Sequence record: OK272482.1
Length of the DNA stretch: 64,000 nt
From: Escherichia phage JLBYU08
Strand: one strand, 5' to 3'
Every line of letters starts with the position of its first letter. Position 1 is the stretch's first letter. The position numbers were made by a program, and so were the translations under genes. Shown here in pieces: positions 2,773-27,121 of this stretch. The notes under the pieces are model-generated. The model did not search any database, was not told where the DNA came from, and saw only the letters and a list, made by a program, of their open reading frames with translations.

Positions 2773-2900
2773 CCTGAAGAGGGTTTCATCCCATAATACC
2801 TGCCTTACCTGAAGAGCGCTTCATATACCCCGTAAATTTTTTTAATTGACCTCCTCCCCGCCGCCGGAGGGGTCGGCTTTTCCCACACAGGCCTGAAGAG
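2773..2900. repeat. three copies of the 9-mer CCTGAAGAG within 130 bp
   Basis: Exact 9-mer at 2773, 2808 and 2892 in a coding-poor region. Confidence 0.5.
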
Positions 2901-3537
2901 TCAGCCAGAAATATTTGAACAGGTCCAGTTATACCACGATTTTGACCTGACCGACAGGGAGGCCCGAAGGGTCTAGCTTTCAGCTAGAGTCCTTGCAGGA
3001 CCTACAGGAGCGCTGCCAGGCGGACGAAATGGGAATACTTCTCATTCTTATAACAATTCTCAAATATCAAGGCAGTGAGGCAAATTAATAGGTGAGGCCG
3101 TTCACATAGTGGCACAACATTTGCAATCTATTTTGTGTGGGGGAATGAGAATACATATCATTGTGAGAACCATTATCATTACGGGCAATTTAACATAATA
3201 CCCATTATACGCACCACTGACGATACATACAGGGATTGATAACATGGGTTACTGTTTACGCATATAACAATTATATTTCTTACTATTTGTGTGGGATATA
3301 GTTAGCAGCCGATAGATTAGATATTGACCTGCGGACTTCTGACCGTCTAGACGTCTAAACGCCCACACAACAAGGCTTATACATACATCGCTGAATGTAA
3401 ACAGGGCCGCAAAAATGCTACCATACCAGATTGTAAATTTTTCATGCAGCACTTGACAAAGAGGAGAAAAACTTGTCTGACACAATATGACATACTGGGC
3501 ACATTAAACACACTTTAGACTTAATTGACATGCCTGA

Positions 3538-3660
3538 CTGTTTACGCTGTCACTATTCACGCTATTACTATTCACTCCCTTTACTGTTCACGCTCTTACT
3601 GTTTACATGCTTAATGGTTTACATGCTTAATATACTGCATGTCTAATAGTTTACATAGCT
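3538..3660. repeat. iteron-like array of 7-8 short direct repeats (TGTTTAC / TATTCAC / TGTTCAC), 14-16 bp period
   Basis: Directly visible tandem degenerate repeats; no ORF. Confidence 0.6.
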
Positions 3661-3684
3661 AACTATTTATACAGATATGATAAG

Positions 3685-3901
3685 CCATGCCATTCGTTTG
3701 CATGTTAATAATTTATGACATAATATAAAAGCAGGGCAACTATTAGCAGATCTATAGTTGCCTTGCTTGTCATGTCATGATTAACTAAATACAAGGCAAC
3801 TATGATCTGATTAATAGTTTGCAGACAAACTATCACGGGGGTGATGGTTACTGCTTTTATATTATGTCGCGACTCCGTCGCGCCATGCCATTCGTTTGCA
3901 T
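3685..3901. repeat. palindromic element: 19-bp direct repeats flanking an 18-bp inverted repeat pair and inner hairpins
   Basis: CCATGCCATTCGTTTGCAT at 3685-3703 and 3883-3901; GACATAATATAAAAGCAG at 3717-3734 inverted at 3851-3868; inner GGCAACTAT/ATAGTTGCC hairpin around a BglII-like AGATCT centre. Confidence 0.6.
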
Positions 3902-4516
3902 AGTTGCCTTATTGTTACAGATAAAATAATTGTATTGTTAATTATTTCTTATCTTTCTCTTAGTCATCTAATGATTCCAGTTAGTATAGTAATGTACAGT
4001 AAACATTAGACGACTAAAGATTTATATGCTTATAATAACTTACAGTGACAATTTCGGACTGTTTACGAAAAATGTTGACACCTGAGCCGATTTATGTTAT
4101 GCAGTTTACACGAATAATTATTTTATGCAGGTATTGACTATTCCGTTATTCCATGGTTGGAATAAATACTTAGCAGTCTATAGAATGGTGACGCTACGTG
4201 AATTCTGGAATTTAGTGGCTATAGTTATACTCGATTTTTCACGTAGAACACGCTTTTGTTAGTGTGTAAGTGTATGACTTATAAAGATTTTTAGTTGTTG
4301 ACAAGATACTGAAGATATGCATCAGGTTAAATTTTGTGCAATAGCGGCATTACGTGCAATTTTGGGAGAGAAAACGGGCAAAAATGGCCTTGCTACCACA
4401 CAATGAAAAATTATGCAATAGTTATTTTCCATGTATATTTGTACAGTGTGTGGGATTAATGGCTAGTCAATTATTCCACTTGCCAGGTAGGGCCGTTTAT
4501 GGTAGGAGAAGAGCAG

Positions 4517-5726: not shown

Positions 5727-5945
5727 AATGTTTTCCTCTCTTCTGGTTGTTGTGTGGGCACTTTTGCCCCTTCAAGATAAATGTTACCCCACCACCTGGC
5801 AGATGTCAACGGTTTTTATAGTTCTTATATGACAGGCAGGCCCGGTGATTGTCTCCCCCTGTTCCCAAGTGCCGCCCGTTTAATAAGAATAGCAAAAGGG
5901 GCCGAACAAGTCAACCCCCAAAATCAGTACCAAAACACTTTTTAT

Positions 5946-9723: not shown

Positions 9724-9843
9724 CTTAGTTACTTACAGCGATAAAGTACATCCCTACGCCTAGCAATATTTCAAGGGCGATAATCTCAAGCCATACCATA
9801 ACGCGGCGCACCTTATCGGTGCATGGCTTATCCTTGGTTGTCA
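9724..9843 (-). CDS. small membrane protein, 39 aa
   Basis: Hydrophobic short ORF not in ORF track. Confidence 0.3.
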
Positions 9844-14912: not shown

Positions 14913-14940
14913 ATAATACCATGATTAACCTTGTTGTCAA
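14913..14940 (-). promoter_or_regulatory. sigma70-like promoter (TTGACA-16-TATTAT)
   Basis: Hexamers on minus strand upstream of 14665..14862. Confidence 0.45.
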
Positions 14941-14948
14941 CGACTATT

Positions 14949-15110
14949 TTAAATTATTTTTATGATAGAATCCACCTGCCGTCCCCGCCAGGTTAACCAC
15001 CATTTTTCGTACTCTTCTTTATGTTCCAACGCTCCCGCCATAGCCTTTTCAACCAGGGCGATAGCCTCAGAGTCATTAATAGCTACATTTTCCAGGGGGG
15101 ATCATATCAT
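14949..15110 (-). pseudogene. small acidic ORF broken by a frame shift at a C6 run (G6 on plus strand, 15095-15100)
   Basis: Strong SD (GAAGAGGAGG) and ATG, then stop within 10 codons; a 50-codon frame resumes after the homopolymer. Confidence 0.3.
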
Positions 15111-15264
15111 TTTTGTACCTCCTCTTCAATTGTTACCTATCCTGTAGCATAGGCCCACCAGGTTTACAAGCCTTCATTCTCCCCTACCTGGTCAGTTAGG
15201 TCCTGCCAGGCTGGCCCCGCCAGGTGGCACAATATACCTATCGAAAGGACGGCAGGCACCGGTG

Positions 15265-15470
15265 ACGGGGGAGACAACCACCGGGGATGGGCGCTGCATA
15301 AAATGAGAACGGTTATCATTATCATTTAAAAATTTATGCAAAAAAAAAAATCCTTGCTTTCTTTGTCCTGTGTGATACTATAATAACAAGCCGGGGCAAC
15401 AGGGGCCGGGAGACAATCACCGGGCCTGCCCGTTATTCTGCAAACGAGAATGATTATCATTCAAAATTCT
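15265..15470. repeat. two imperfect direct repeats of about 65 bp (GGGAGACAA-CACCGGG ... ATGAGAAC ... TTATCATT)
   Basis: Visible by eye at about 15267-15330 and 15406-15467; A11 run at 15340-15350 between them. Confidence 0.5.
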
Positions 15471-15574
15471 AAATGAGAACTCCTCGCATTTAATAAATTT
15501 AATTAGCACGCTAATTACCCTCCGTAACAATTTACTATAAAATAGTATCCACTAAAATATTCCCATATAGAAAT

Positions 15575-15770
15575 TTTAAAAATCCATTTCTGAAAACGAA
15601 AAATCGATTTCGTCCCCAAAAATTTCAGGTTGAGAGCCGGAACGATTTCCAGAAAATCCGATTCAGAAAACGAAAAACAGATCGAGTACTGAGAAATTTA
15701 TCGAGAAAAATTTTCAGAAAATCCAAGCCCTGAAATGAAAAGTAGATCGAGTACCTGGAAAGCTGCACCG
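15575..15770. repeat. A-tract repeat cluster (TCAGAAAA, AAAATCC, AGATCGAGTAC motifs)
   Basis: Several copies of short motifs in a 900-bp non-coding gap. Confidence 0.5.
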
Positions 15771-16066
15771 CAACTTCAAGATAGCGGTTAGATTGTTACC
15801 ATAGAAGGTCAAGGGTAAGTGGAGGAAGTTCTAGTAGAGAGAGGTTAGCATGTGTGGGAAATCTATAATGGTGGCCTGGAATATGGTGCAAACGATAGGA
15901 TGAGTTATTCAGCTTGTCGCGCCTACTCTGAAAAATCCATTTTAGTTTTCGATCCATTTTCTGATTTTCTAAGAATTTTAAAATATCCAGCCCGGTGAAA
16001 TATCAAAAGGAGGAAATCCATTTTAGAAATCCCCCTTATACTTGATATGCCAGAAATTTTCAAGTA

Positions 16067-16396
16067 TCAGTTGTCTTTGTTTTTAGGTTTGTACATGCGC
16101 AGAGGTATGGTCTTTGTAACATTCCATTTCCTCAACCCTTCCCAGCTCCAGTTGTGGGCGTGGTATCCGGTTATGCATGCACTACTGGAGTGATCGTAAG
16201 CATAAGAGAACGCTAAGCGCACCAGGTGGGGCCAGTCCTTCCATGGTTGTGGACCGTAAGCTTTTCTCCAACACCGACACAAACTAAATGTCTCAAGGAT
16301 AGGAAGGATAACAAACCCATACACTGTCACCAAAATAGCCAGTGCAATGATTGTCAGGAATACATACCCTGCAGTTGAAATGATGATCTCTGTCAT
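16067..16396 (-). CDS. membrane protein, 109 aa
   Basis: N-terminal hydrophobic segment; AGGGGAGGA SD; ATGA coupling. Confidence 0.6.
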   Translation of the reverse strand: MTEIIISTAGYVFLTIIALAILVTVYGFVILPILETFSLCRCWRKAYGPQPWKDWPHLVRLAFSYAYDHSSSACITGYHAHNWSWEGLRKWNVTKTIPLRMYKPKNKDN

Positions 16397-24368: not shown

Positions 24369-24697
24369 CATCTGTTCAGGTAGGTCGTTAAGCTACCCCG
24401 CACCATTACGTGCATAGCCATACAGTTTCCTGTATGGATCGGACTACCTCACTGCCTTGGTAACAAGGCACCTCCCATTTCGACCGCACTTGCTGGCCTA
24501 CTCTACTCGCTTCTTCACACCAACCTATGTTGGAGCTATGCTTTCGATAGTCTCTGAACGTTCATCCTCTCGGATGCTTCGCTGCGGATTAGCATATTGA
24601 GCTTTTACCATACTCAGGTGTAAAAGTCAACTTAGCTTTCCCGTCAATTAAAGAGGTTATTCGACATAGATCACTCTATGAAGCCACAATGTTATTT
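24369..24697 (-). mobile_element. group I self-splicing intron, 329 nt, no internal ORF
   Basis: AAUUGACGGGAAAG, GUUCAGAGACUA and GGUAGUCCGA elements; exon 1 ends in U, intron ends in G; in-frame TAA just inside intron. Confidence 0.8.
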
Positions 24698-27121
24698 ATG
24701 GTAATAGATAATACGACGGACACCTTCATCGTACCACCCACGCTTCACCATTTGGTGGTGCATGAGTATCCCAACTAAGTCACACAACGATGCACCACCA
24801 TTTTGTTGGTATGCATTAAGTAAAGAGTGTTTAGATCGGGTCCAGATGGCATGACCATCAAAAGAGTATATAAACTTCTTACCAGTTGCTTCCCAGAATT
24901 TCTCCAGATCCTCTTTACGCCCCTTAAGACCAGGGTTGGCATCCCAAAGCGCATCGATTACCCTTTGCCCCAACTCTGGAGAGATATCCAGCATGTCTGC
25001 AACTTTATCTTTTTGTGCCCCGTACATAACCCCATACGTGATAGGTTTACCGTCGTTACGGGACACCTCTCTGCCTGCTACTTTTGTATATGCCTCAGCA
25101 TTGTTTTGGTGTGCGTCCCCGTTACTTACAACATCATAATACAAGCCGTTGTCGAACTCAAAGGCACCCCAAGCCCCGATAAGCTGCTCTAAGTTGGACC
25201 CGTCAATACCGATCTCAAAGTATCCTGGAGGAACACCCCACAGACTACGCATCTCTTTACCCATAACCACTTTAGGAGATGGTTTAGGCATGTTTGCACA
25301 AATACTGTGTTTCTGTCGGGAAGTGTTTGTTAGCCCAGAACTTTTAGCAGGAAGCTTATGGTCAATCTTCAAACGTGGGTGATTAAGAAGACCAGTATCA
25401 ACCTTATCCTCCTTGATTGGATCAAGGACCGATCTGCGGTTTCGCAATGATAACCACAAGACGATATCTTTAGCCATCTCTCCGTTCAATTTTTCAAGAT
25501 TTGGGCATAGGTGTCCAAACGTATCTTTCAGCTGCGGAGAAGTAATAAGTGCTCTGGCTTTTCTACGTATTTTCCCGAATACTTCCTTTTTAATCCTTTC
25601 GGAGTTAGGAAAGCTTCGGAACTTGTGCACGGTTGTCTGAAACTTAGCATCAGTTTTGTTCCAGAAGTTGATAATCAGGTCACAATACTCTGACTCTAAA
25701 AGCTCGTCCATGTATGCATATACTCGTGCATCAACATCTGCATCAGGTAGAGCTTTCTTCTTGCTGTCTTTAGTTACATCCTTAGTTCTCCACATTGTCG
25801 GAAGCCAACCAGCACTGATCAGGTATCGCTTAATGTCGTCCTGATTGCTGATTTTCATAGGTATCTTGCAGTCCGGCATTCGCTTCTGCTGTAGATCACT
25901 TATTGCCTGATCCATCAGCTCTTTAGGTAAAGGTTGTGGTGTGGAAGTGCCCTTAATATAGCCTCTCAAGAAATCAGCCATCTTATCAGGGTCTTTGCAG
26001 CCCATCTCTTCACACCATTTTATCCCCATCTTGCTGACATCTCCTGTGGAGGTAAATGCTCGCTTAGGCGGGGCTTTGAACTCCAAAGCACTCATGTCCA
26101 CAGGATAGCCAAGCTTATCTTTTAACCATTTCCAACCATTGTTGGAGATTGTCCCATCTTGGTTAAACGGCTTTTCAGGGAACTTGGGCCGCTGAGACAT
26201 TGACAGCTCTTTTAAAGGAAGTTGAGGTTCAACACGATCAGCGATTTCTTTCATCCACGCATCGCAACGGTCACGTAAAGCAATAGCTCCATCTATGTCG
26301 AAGTATACACCCTGACGGGCCTGCAGCTCCATCAGGAAGTGCTGCAGCATGCCTCGACGTAGTGCGTTCTTCCAGGTGATCTTCTTGAACCCTTTCGGCT
26401 TCTCTTTGGCTGGATCGTACATAAAGTTCTGCATGTCAGATTTGCCGTAGAATACACCTTTTGATTCCGCTACCAGCTCTTTCCAGAGCAGCTCCTGGAT
26501 GATAACGTCCTCGAATACACGATCCACATACTTCCACAACGGAAGATCGCGCCAGTCATCAATTTGAACTTTCTGGTTACCAAGGGCGTAGCCCCATGCC
26601 ATAAGGCCGTGAGGACCAACAGGCTGCATTTTCTTAGTAACCGGGTTGAATACAGAGTCCGGACAACCTTTTGGTAAAGGGCGATCAGGCCACAAGATTC
26701 GGCTCATCGCCAACGTATCAAACAGGTTAACCTGGTGGTCGTTGATAGTCCCCATACATTTAGGATCACGGAACATATCAAAATGAATACCGGATAATCT
26801 CTCCATCAGCATAAAGTCATAACTGTAGCAGTTATGGCAGTTCAAAGCTGTTGGTGACCAGTCGGAATTGCCTGTAAGCCAACCCTCCAACTCTGAAAAA
26901 TCTGCTATGCGAACTTCAAAATCTTTATAAAAAGTTTTCTTTGCCAGAATAAAGTTCTTAGCCTTCTCTATATCCTCTTCGGAGTAGTGTGTGCGGTCAT
27001 TTAGAGGAAGGAACAGCATAAAACGGTTCTTATTCAGCTCTTTAAACAGGCCGCAGTGATAATAAAGATCTGGGTCTTCCAGCAAACCGGATGACTCAAA
27101 ATCGAACGACCACATGCTCAT
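24698..27121 (-). CDS. DNA polymerase (family A) exon 1: 3'-5' exonuclease and polymerase domains through motif B
   Basis: N-terminal WSFDFESSG exo motif; IGIDGSNLEQL (motif A-like); KPITYGVMYGAQ (motif B); AAGGAGAA SD. Confidence 0.9.

What the first reader, a model, noticed from the sequence alone, without database searches (positions are those of the whole stretch)
15150..16060. Second repeat-rich non-coding gap inside the early block
About 900 bp without ORFs holds two imperfect direct repeats of roughly 65 bp (within 15265-15470), an A11 run, and a cluster of A-tract motifs (TCAGAAAA, AAAATCC, AGATCGAGTAC; 15575-15770). An SD-like AAAGGAGGAAA at about 15990 has no start codon after it. 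The region could be a regulatory hub, bent-DNA origin or non-coding RNA locus separating two early transcription units.
Basis: seen in the sequence. Interest (0 to 1): 0.55.

Follow-up and report, generated by a model that had tools for sequence, protein, structure and literature searches.

The report
Conserved Fur-box and iteron non-coding module
The 900-base gap is a real non-coding control region, conserved across a wide group of large virulent phages, that combines promoter-driven hairpin units, binding sites matching the host iron regulator Fur, and three phage-specific repeats; the same Fur-site array sits in the unexplained repeat region of T5-like phages.

Summary
The window is an rV5-like phage (Vequintavirus). 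The gap at 15150-16066 is real and non-coding: every candidate ORF is broken in relatives.

It is an ordered module, kept in the same order and orientation in at least seven related lineages, including Aeromonas and Vibrio phages:
- Two tandem sigma-70 promoter plus GC hairpin units with a conserved loop GGAGACAAnCACC. A third copy lies near 5.85 kb.
- Palindromes that behave as Fur boxes. A matrix built only from phage copies picks out the fepA-fes, fepD-entS, fepB-entC and ryhB promoters in 100 kb of E. coli K-12. The boxes are phased 29 bp apart.
- Three iterons of about 57 nt.
- A G-rich, C-poor patch.
- AAATCCATTT and AAATATC repeats.

The hairpins, Fur boxes and iterons are more conserved than the flanking genes.

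A Fur-box array followed by AAATCCGA-type repeats and a G-rich patch also lies in the terminal-repeat "Repeat Region 3" of T5-like phages, where Fur is not mentioned.

Best reading, inferred: a Fur-gated, transcription-activated DNA site, probably origin-like. No experiment supports the function. RNA covariation is weak, and evidence for bent DNA is weak.

The parts
15228..15233 (+). -10-like CACAAT, the remnant of the copy-1 promoter. The TTGACA -35 present in EdH4/FFH2 is missing here because of a 65-bp deletion between GGCCCCGCCAGGT direct repeats.
15252..15297 (+). Hairpin unit copy 1: an outer stem enclosing an inner stem-loop with loop GGGGGAGACAACCACC.
   Evidence: MFE -20.1 kcal/mol, z -2.57; 100% invariant in 7 genomes
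15300..15328 (.). Fur-box cluster 1: two overlapping sites offset by 6 bp. GATAATGATAACCGTTCTC is 16/19 to the Fur consensus.
   Evidence: 24.8 bits
15340..15350 (+). A11 run just upstream of the copy-2 -35 element; A6-A7 in relatives.
15354..15384 (+). Copy-2 promoter: TTGCTT, 19-nt spacer, perfect TATAAT.
   Evidence: 100% invariant; equivalent TTGCAA/TTGATC-N16-17-TATATT/TATTAT in other genera
15394..15431 (+). Hairpin unit copy 2, loop GGGAGACAATCACC. This is the stretch still recognisable at DNA level in distant genera.
15435..15464 (-). Candidate leftward promoter TTGAAT-N18-CAGAAT with Fur box 2 in its spacer. It would make an antisense of hairpin copy 2.
   Evidence: read; 8/12 to consensus, below the scan threshold; conserved in Seuna-, Mydo- and Certrevirus
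15441..15463 (.). Fur box 2 (28.5 bits; 7-1-7 core CGAGAAT-G-ATTATCA).
15470..15492 (.). Fur box 3 (18.6 bits), 29 bp after box 2.
15500..15517 (+). AT-rich hairpin TAATTAG-CACG-CTAATTA, kept in contigs L015/L003 with a G:U-compatible change.
   Evidence: z -2.2 on + strand, -0.1 on - strand
15531..15558 (+). Promoter-like site TTTACT-N16-TAAAAT facing the iterons. The equivalents in Mydo- and Seunavirus are stronger (TTGACT/TTGACA-N17 with an extended -10).
15566..15622 (+). Iteron 1.
15640..15696 (+). Iteron 2 (GAAAATCCGATTCAGAAAACGAAAAACAGATCGAGTAC).
   Evidence: 97% invariant core
15705..15761 (+). Iteron 3.
15762..15925 (+). G-rich, C-poor patch (49 G, 20 C). Its sequence is poorly conserved but its composition and position are conserved.
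   Evidence: 47-60% invariant; skew +0.42, 99.8th percentile of the window
15927..16035 (+). Right repeat block: AAATCCATTT at 15933 and 16014, GATCCATTTT, AAATATC twice, and the SD-like AAAGGAGGAAA.
   Evidence: 93-97% invariant at 15930-15990
16035..16070 (-). Inverted repeat overlapping the stop codon of the upstream minus-strand gene; possibly the end of that transcript.
   Evidence: I23; not tested further
5826..5914 (-). Third hairpin unit, with its own TTGACT-N17-TATTCT promoter. It runs in the same direction as the genes and has no Fur box.
   Evidence: -18.3 vs -11.7 kcal/mol sense vs antisense
3026..3182 (.). Three further Fur-box-like sites in the other large non-coding region of the window.

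Best explanation
The gap is a cis-acting, multi-part non-coding module shared by rV5-like phages and their relatives.

Shown:
- It is non-coding and conserved.
- It contains sigma-70-type promoters that point rightward, against the flow of the surrounding early genes.
- Those promoters sit in front of GC-rich hairpin units.
- The palindromes that follow have the sequence specificity of E. coli Fur boxes and are phased 29 bp apart.
- Next come three same-orientation iterons, whose 3' half differs between genera but is uniform within a genome.
- Next is a G-rich, C-poor patch, then further short repeats.

Inferred:
- Fe2+-Fur occupies the box array and gates rightward transcription from the hairpin promoters and the promoter-like site at 15531-15558.
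- A phage-encoded protein binds the iterons.
- Transcripts entering the G-rich patch are prone to form RNA-DNA hybrids.
- The module would then work as a transcription-activated, origin-like site for replication initiation, tied to host iron status.
- The hairpin RNAs are by-products or modulators of that transcription.
For: Non-coding status and constraint:
- All candidate ORFs are broken in relatives.
- Hairpin and Fur blocks are 87-100% invariant; flanking ORFs are 67-93%.

Module order:
- The order hairpin, palindromes, three iterons, right-hand repeats holds in Vequinta-, Seuna-, Mydo- and Certrevirus; the Aeromonas and Vibrio phages show the hairpin units, palindromes and repeat units, and Phapecoctavirus ESCO5 has differently arranged A/T repeats in place of the three iterons.

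Fur specificity:
- The consensus matches are far above chance: 1 vs 0.00 expected and 4 vs 0.08 expected.
- A matrix built from 68 phage sites gave its top 7 hits in 49.9 kb of E. coli K-12 only in the fepB-entC, fepA-fes and fepD-entS intergenic regions.
- In a second 49.9 kb its single strong hit (24.7 bits, next best 8.9) was the ryhB promoter.
- Secondary hits offset by 6 bp match the overlapping-site clusters described for Fur (PMC2189734).
- 29-bp phasing is seen in 8 loci.

Rightward promoters:
- They are conserved at a fixed distance from the hairpin.

Strand of the hairpin RNA:
- 17 G:U cells against 7 A.C cells in the outer stem.
- Better fold z-scores on the promoter-defined strand for all three copies.

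Iterons:
- Three per genome. The 3' half (GATCGAGTACC, GATCGAGAACC, GATCGAGACCC, CTCAAGTCCCC, CTTTGGTGCT) differs between lineages but is uniform within each.

G-rich patch:
- It lies in the same position in Vequintavirus, two related contigs, ESCO5 and BF23, and more weakly in three other genera.
Against: - There is no experimental evidence of any kind: no Fur binding, no transcript mapping, no origin mapping.
- GC skew follows transcription and does not switch here (the rV5 paper reached the same conclusion).
- There are no good DnaA boxes in the window; the best is 7/9, at 15546.
- GATC is not enriched, and A-tract phasing is weak.
- There is no similarity to plasmid origins.
- No adjacent initiator gene was identified.
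- In T5-like phages, which share the Fur, repeat and G-patch arrangement, electron microscopy placed replication origins near mid-genome (as cited in bioRxiv 10.1101/866236).
- RNA covariation for the hairpin is weak: 2 double changes in 13 sequences, and a partner-swap test was not significant.
- Some inner-stem changes would pair better on the opposite strand (phiTE and PhAER-3).
- In this particular phage, copy 1 has lost its -35 element.
Confidence: 0.42

Rival explanations
1. Iron-responsive transcription boundary. The Fur boxes repress a leftward promoter (TTGAAT-N18-CAGAAT, 15464 to 15435). When iron is low, this promoter makes an antisense of the hairpin RNA and drives the downstream early genes. 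The convergent rightward promoters insulate the two early units. The iterons would bind a phage transcription factor.
For: - The Fur box lies exactly in the spacer of a leftward -35/-10 pair, the classical layout seen at ryhB.
- That pair is conserved in Vequinta-, Seuna-, Mydo- and Certrevirus.
- The module sits inside a 38-kb co-directional early block.
- Some inner-stem variants pair better on the minus strand.
Against: - The leftward promoter is weak: 8/12 with an 18-nt spacer, and below the threshold.
- In the Vibrio phage and in BF23 the Fur array is not adjacent to a hairpin unit.
- G:U counts and z-scores favour the rightward strand.
- This reading does not explain the conserved G-rich patch or the three phased iterons.
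Confidence: 0.2
2. Genome-end or packaging recognition site. The iterons and short repeats would be binding sites for terminase or an end-processing protein, as suggested by the position of the equivalent T5/BF23 array next to the right boundary of the long terminal repeat.
For: - In BF23 the Fur boxes, the GTGCAAATCCGACA repeats, the G-rich patch and TTGAGATAA x2 lie 60-650 bp from the terminal-repeat end at 9743.
- phiTE, an rV5-like phage, is terminally redundant and circularly permuted, with a possible pac fragment (PMC3475682).
- Arrays of short repeats are typical of terminase recognition sites (general knowledge).
Against: - The module lies in the early block, far from the structural and terminase genes.
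- Record start points of more than 100 related genomes do not cluster at it.
- The sigma-70 promoters, Fur boxes and G-rich patch have no obvious role in packaging.
Confidence: 0.12
3. Trans-acting elements. The hairpin units are small-RNA genes whose conserved loop pairs with or binds a host or phage target. The Fur boxes would act as a decoy that titrates Fur from the replicating phage DNA. The other repeats would be unrelated.
For: - There are three promoter-hairpin copies, one away from the module.
- An unrelated viral contig has at least 5 copies, each between a TATAAT and a U-run.
- The window holds at least 6 high-scoring Fur sites. With hundreds of genome copies, that number would be comparable to the cellular Fur pool (my estimate from general knowledge).
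Against: - No terminator follows the hairpins in the window.
- No enriched complement to the loop exists in the window: 3 extra one-mismatch hits against 1.3 expected.
- No Rfam match.
- The strict order and spacing of all parts across genera argues for a single unit.
Confidence: 0.12
4. Non-functional leftovers: decayed genes and duplicated promoter fragments.
For: - The neighbouring small ORF is decaying.
- The stretch 15000-15200 is absent in FV3 and ECP26.
- The A-run length and a 65-bp indel vary between strains.
Against: - The core blocks are more conserved than the flanking genes.
- They are retained, in order, in at least seven related lineages on different hosts.
Confidence: 0.03

Closest known systems
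E. coli Fur boxes, e.g. the Fur-repressed ryhB, fepA-fes and fepB-entC promoters
   Same: The same 19-bp palindromic specificity (GATAATGATAATCATTATC, or 7-1-7 TGATAATnATTATCA), including overlapping sites offset by 6 bp. The phage-derived matrix finds exactly these host promoters.
   Different: - The sites are in a strictly virulent phage.
- They form arrays of 2-5 boxes at a fixed 29-bp phase.
- They are not clearly over a strong promoter.
- Binding is untested.
Repeat Region 3 of the T5/BF23 left terminal repeat (the injection-stop-signal region; Davison, bioRxiv 10.1101/866236)
   Same: An untranslated region with the same order of parts: an array of the same palindromes (by position these correspond to the 'DRC/palE-J' elements, which is my inference), then many copies of a repeat with an AAATCCGA core and A5T5 tracts, then a G-rich patch. 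A closing TTGAGATAA x2 motif is shared with ESCO5 and Mydovirus but was not found in this window.
   Different: - T5-like phages have paired DnaA boxes and a terminator, and no hairpin units.
- Their array lies inside a long terminal repeat.
- It is linked to A1/A2-dependent two-step DNA transfer. rV5-like phages show no A1 or A2 homologues.
Transcription-activated or R-loop-primed origins and iteron origins (ColE1 RNA II, T7 phi1.1A/B origin, T4 oriF/oriG, lambda ori)
   Same: Promoters fire into an A/T-rich repeat region followed by a G-rich non-template stretch. Same-orientation iterons evolve in concert within each genome.
   Different: - No sequence similarity.
- No adjacent initiator gene.
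- No GC-skew switch.
- No DnaA boxes.
- Nothing has been mapped experimentally. The comparison rests on general knowledge of those systems.
phiTE pseudo-ToxI non-coding RNA locus (PMC3475682)
   Same: A repeat-containing non-coding locus in an rV5-like phage.
   Different: It is a different locus with a different sequence. In DU_PP_IV the ToxI-like repeats are at about 144.0 kb and this module at about 74.7 kb. There is no similarity to the 36-nt ToxI unit.

Membership tests
Fur box (Fur-binding site) | Match to the 19-bp consensus or the 7-1-7 inverted repeat | tested here: met
   15305-15323 is 16/19, with 0.00 matches expected. Four sites within 3 mismatches of the phage consensus, 0.08 expected. 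P8734 has a perfect TGATAAT-G-ATTATCA.
Fur box (Fur-binding site) | Same positional specificity as proven host sites | tested here: met
   The phage-site matrix ranks only the fepB-entC, fepA-fes and fepD-entS intergenic regions (top 7 of 49.9 kb), and ranks the ryhB promoter first in a second 49.9 kb.
Fur box (Fur-binding site) | Clusters of overlapping sites 3 or 6 bp apart (PMC2189734) | tested here: met
   Secondary hits at +6 bp at 15302/15308, 15443/15449 and in ESCO5, Mydo and BF23; the paper text is.
Fur box (Fur-binding site) | Binding of Fe2+-Fur in vitro or in vivo | not testable with these tools
   Needs EMSA, footprinting, ChIP or a Fur titration assay.
Fur box (Fur-binding site) | Overlap with a promoter that it represses | tested here: inconclusive
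   The only overlap is with a weak leftward TTGAAT-N18-CAGAAT. Relative to the rightward promoters, the boxes lie downstream of the hairpin promoters and upstream of the 15531-15558 site.
Iteron-type replication origin | Several same-orientation repeats, regularly spaced, specific to each replicon | tested here: met
   Three units spaced 74 and 65 bp. Three units in each of the genera examined, with a lineage-specific 3' half.
Iteron-type replication origin | Adjacent A/T-rich unwinding region | tested here: inconclusive
   15500-15770 is 65% A+T against 56% for the window, with A5T5 tracts between units in other genera. No discrete unwinding element was identified.
Iteron-type replication origin | DnaA boxes, or an initiator gene next to the iterons | tested here: not met
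   The best DnaA-box match is 7/9 (15546-15554, read). Neighbouring ORFs are small hypothetical genes.
Iteron-type replication origin | Strand-composition switch at the origin | tested here: not met
   Cumulative GC skew is monotonic across 4-42 kb.
T5-type injection-stop region | Location in a long terminal repeat, with paired DnaA boxes in IRD'/IRC' | tested here: not met
   No DnaA-box pairs in the window. The rV5-like phage phiTE is circularly permuted.
T5-type injection-stop region | A1 and A2 DNA-transfer proteins | tested here: not met
   No tblastn hit in the window. The listed A1 relatives and the organism counts show no ~137-kb Escherichia Vequintavirus record among 1135 matching phage records.
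Described RNA family / typical trans-acting small RNA | Match to a curated covariance model | tested here: not met
   No Rfam hit at the gathering score. The best E-value in the gap is 0.73. Nothing was found in 9 related loci.
Described RNA family / typical trans-acting small RNA | Own promoter, conserved structure with covariation, intrinsic terminator | tested here: inconclusive
   Promoter: met. Outer stem: 86.5% paired against 27-55% in slid controls, but only 2 double changes. No U-run after the hairpin in the window, although one exists in contig L012.
Type III antitoxin mimic (pseudo-ToxI) | Tandem units of about 36 nt similar to ToxI | tested here: not met
   ToxI-like repeats map elsewhere in Certreviruses. 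The units here are 57-74 nt and unrelated.

The most novel reading that the evidence does not exclude
Large virulent phages of two unrelated groups (rV5-like myoviruses and T5-like siphoviruses) carry phased arrays of high-affinity binding sites for the host iron regulator Fur inside an essential cis-acting DNA region. Fur would then be a host factor that couples an early step of infection (DNA entry arrest in T5, replication or early transcription in rV5-like phages) to cellular iron. Alternatively, the arrays would titrate Fur as the genome replicates. Either way, this would supply the missing host factor for the long-unexplained T5 injection-stop and repeat region.
Probability: 0.2. Interest if true: 0.85.

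Novelty: new variant of a known kind. Interest (0 to 1): 0.66.

Why it matters
- If Fur binds these arrays, strictly lytic phages read the host's iron status through a host repressor. In the literature I could search, such control is described for host and prophage promoters, not for virulent phage genomes (searches found nothing).
- It turns the T5 terminal-repeat "Repeat Region 3", known for decades and still without a function, into a testable problem: try a fur mutant, iron chelation and Fur footprinting.
- It gives rV5-like phages, which are used in typing and therapy collections, a candidate cis-acting origin or control region.
- It shows that the small ORFs annotated across this gap in many GenBank records are probably spurious.

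Tried and rejected
- **Protein-coding gap.** Rejected. The ORFs are broken in relatives. The two PHROG hits only reflect annotation of near-identical genomes.
- **Known RNA family, tRNA or tmRNA.** None found.
- **Host-derived DNA.** No match in 5,426 E. coli genomes.
- **pseudo-ToxI locus.** It is a different place and a different sequence.
- **T5-type two-step injection.** No A1 or A2 homologues.
- **Bent-DNA signature.** Only one of eight periods reached p about 0.01, uncorrected.
- **Dam-site clustering.** GATC is not enriched.
- **Partner-swap covariation test for the outer stem.** Not significant, because the arms are G/C-rich and similar across lineages.
- **Short-pattern scan of the viral collection (GGAGACAANCACCGG).** It returned mostly chance matches inside a prophage gene.
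- **Targets complementary to the hairpin loop in the window.** Not enriched.
- **Literature searches.** Searches for Fur boxes in lytic phages, and for Vequintavirus small RNAs or transcriptomes, gave nothing relevant.
Full report
**What the window is.** The region 14900-16200 matches 121 phage records. The best is Escherichia phage EdH4 at 98.7% identity, and nearly all are Vequintavirus, the rV5-like phages. Records labelled "Campylobacter phage" are unannotated and otherwise indistinguishable from these. From the coordinates of the rV5 match and the skew change points reported for rV5, the window covers about rV5 101.6 kb onward. The gap lies inside the long early block that is transcribed leftward on the minus strand.

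**Checking the observation.** The flanking minus-strand genes end at 16067 and resume near 15111.
- The two direct repeats, the A11 run, the cluster of A-tract motifs and the orphan SD-like sequence are all present.
- Two coordinates need correcting. The A-run is at 15340-15350, and AAAGGAGGAAA is at 16006-16016.
- The gap is non-coding. Six annotated relatives carry different small ORFs on different strands.
- All four candidate ORFs I tested acquire frameshifts or stop codons in at least two of six Vequintavirus genomes.
- Two PHROG matches exist only because such ORFs were annotated in near-identical genomes.

**Conservation.** I aligned seven Vequintavirus genomes and scored 30-nt windows for invariant positions:

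| Stretch | Invariant |
|---|---|
| 15210-15330 | 87-100% |
| 15360-15480 | 90-100% |
| Iteron cores | 90-97% |
| 15930-15990 | 93-97% |
| 15750-15930 | 47-60% |
| Flanking ORFs | 67-93% |

A more sensitive DNA search found window 15393-15497 at 72-86% identity in Phapecoctavirus, Seunavirus, Mydovirus, Certrevirus and Pantoea, Aeromonas and other phages, almost always unannotated. Reading those loci shows the whole gap is one ordered module in one orientation.

**Part 1: promoter-hairpin units.** Each unit is a sigma-70-type promoter followed 6-8 nt later by a GC-rich outer stem. The stem encloses a short inner stem with the conserved loop GGAGACAAnCACC.
- Promoters seen include TTGCAA-N17-TATATT, TTGATC-N16-TATTAT and TTGACA-N16/17-TATTAT. 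In the window the copy-2 promoter is TTGCTT-N19-TATAAT.
- The window has two tandem units on the plus strand. A third, at 5826-5914 on the minus strand, has its own TTGACT-N17-TATTCT promoter.
- Copy 1 has lost its TTGACA in this phage through a 65-bp deletion between GGCCCCGCCAGGT repeats.
- In 13 sequences from other genera the outer stem is 86.5% paired, against 27-55% when the partner strand is slid.
- Most variation there is G:C to G:U. There are 17 G:U cells against 7 A.C cells.
- All three window copies fold better, relative to shuffles, on the promoter-defined strand.
- Full compensatory changes are few, and a partner-swap test was not significant.
- Two inner-stem variants would pair better on the other strand.
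- No Rfam family matches.
- I therefore treat an RNA role as plausible, not shown.
- An unrelated viral contig carries at least five such hairpins, each after a TATAAT, before a U-run and ahead of a gene.

**Part 2: Fur boxes.** After each hairpin come palindromes with consensus AAATGAGAATnATTCTCATTT.
- The site at 15305-15323 is 16/19 to the Fur consensus, with none expected by chance.
- Four sites in the window lie within 3 mismatches of the phage consensus, against 0.08 expected. All four are in non-coding DNA.
- As an independent test I built a weight matrix from 68 phage sites only and scanned E. coli K-12.
  - In 596,000-645,900 the top seven hits all fall in the fepB-entC, fepA-fes and fepD-entS intergenic regions. 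These are Fur-regulated enterobactin promoters and make up about 1.5% of the sequence.
  - In 3,560,000-3,609,900 the only strong hit (24.7 bits, next best 8.9) is the ryhB promoter.
- Secondary hits offset by 6 bp match the overlapping-site clusters described for Fur (PMC2189734).
- Successive boxes are exactly 29 bp apart in eight loci.
- Binding itself is untested.

**Part 3: iterons and what follows.**
- Three units of about 57 nt lie at 15566-15761. They correspond to three units in every genus examined.
- The shared plan is GAAAAT(A/C)CGAT, then AAAAyGAAAA, then a 3' core. That core is uniform within a genome but differs between lineages: GATCGAGTACC, GATCGAGAACC, GATCGAGACCC, CTCAAGTCCCC or CTTTGGTGCT. 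This pattern is expected of sites that co-evolve with a phage-specific DNA-binding protein.
- A promoter-like site faces the iterons at 15531-15558. Its equivalents in Mydo- and Seunavirus are stronger.
- Directly after the iterons lies a G-rich, C-poor patch at 15762-15925, with 49 G and 20 C. Its skew is in the 99.8th percentile of the window.
- The patch varies in sequence, but its position and composition recur in related contigs, ESCO5 and BF23, and more weakly in three other genera.
- The right end carries AAATCCATTT and AAATATC repeats that are again conserved across genera. The orphan SD-like motif is part of this block.

**The T5 connection.** A search with the Certrevirus module hit many T5-like phages inside the left terminal repeat.
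- In BF23 the order of parts is: DnaA boxes, four to five of the same palindromes (29-31 bits), a terminator, about eight GTGCAAATCCGACA repeats with A5T5 tracts, a strongly G-rich patch, TTGAGATAA twice, and then the repeat boundary.
- By position, the palindromes correspond to the "DRC" and "pal" elements of Repeat Region 3 in Davison's analysis. That analysis links the region to the injection stop signal and DnaA, and never mentions Fur.
- The rV5-like window has no A1 or A2 homologue. A1 relatives in the phage collection show no sign of Vequintavirus among the listed records. The shared module is therefore not tied to T5-type two-step transfer.

**How it most likely works.**
- Shown: the anatomy, the conservation, the Fur-type specificity, the promoter orientation and the composition.
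- Inferred: Fur occupies the array when iron is available and gates rightward transcription. A phage protein binds the iterons. Transcripts entering the G-rich patch tend to stay hybridised to the template. The module would then work as a transcription-activated, origin-like site, by analogy with ColE1, the T7 primary origin and T4 oriF/oriG (general knowledge).
- Against this: no skew switch, no DnaA boxes, no initiator gene, no plasmid-origin similarity, weak curvature signal, and the mid-genome origins reported for T5.
- Alternatives that remain open:
  - A Fur-repressed leftward promoter, TTGAAT-N18-CAGAAT at 15464 to 15435, making an antisense and driving downstream early genes.
  - A packaging or end-processing site.
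  - Trans-acting small RNAs together with a Fur decoy.

**Literature.** The rV5 genome paper only marks a "non-coding" box and could not define an origin. The phiTE pseudo-ToxI locus is a different locus. Searches for Fur boxes in lytic phage genomes, or for Vequintavirus small RNAs, found nothing relevant. The searchable library does not cover subscription journals.

**Verdict.**
- The region is a conserved non-coding module. Its most solid new feature is a phased Fur-box array shared with T5-like phages.
- I rate it a new variant of known kinds (Fur-controlled sites; iteron or transcription-activated cis elements), not a new category.
- I rate interest at about 0.66. The Fur link is unexpected for virulent phages, and it makes the old T5 repeat-region question directly testable.

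Noticed in passing
window 2800-4100: A second large ORF-poor region, at the convergence of the late plus-strand unit and the early minus-strand unit. It holds Fur-box-like sites at 3026, 3142 and 3160, and a run of TACTGTTTAC/TACTATTCAC-type repeats at about 3530-3660.
   Followed up: partly
window 24419-24707 (-): A group I catalytic intron (RF00028, 72.5 bits, complete model) inside the early block.
   Followed up: no
window 14949-15122 (-): The small gene next to the gap (homologue of EdH4_00028, 57 aa) is disrupted in this phage: a 7-bp deletion just after the ATG, and a C6 run instead of C5. The stretch 15000-15200 is absent from FV3 and ECP26.
   Followed up: partly
L017 2290-2440; L018 2290-2420; L019 1290-1430; L016 2340-2470: In Seuna-, Mydo-, Certre- and Phapecoctavirus a second conserved element lies just upstream of the hairpin unit. 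It has its own promoter (...GCCACCCCACGGCGAAAAGGCGGGGCTAAC...GGAAGGTGGATCGCCGGTAG) and is followed by TTGTAAAGA twice, often after a small plus-strand ORF. It is absent from this window and has no Rfam match.
   Followed up: no
L009 and L012 (IMGVR_UViG_3300027123_000194): An unrelated 46.8-kb viral contig has at least five hairpins with the same GGAGACAAnCACC loop. Each follows a TATAAT, precedes a U-run and TGTAA repeats, and sits in front of a gene.
   Followed up: partly
phage collection: Sequences about 90-100% identical to the 36-nt ToxI antitoxin repeat occur in 200 phage records, 163 of them Klebsiella phages, mostly unannotated.
   Followed up: no
window 5800-5815, 14913-14940, 15210-15233: Early promoters of this phage share a CCAGGTGG-type motif in the spacer between TTGACA and the -10 element, on either strand.
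   Followed up: no
L026 (BF23) 1835-1910 and 2098-2122: In the T5-like phage the Fur-box array is preceded by two TGTGGATAA DnaA boxes and followed by a strong GC hairpin terminator. The published estimate of the first-step-transfer shear point (T5 9618) falls about where the palindrome array lies.
   Followed up: partly
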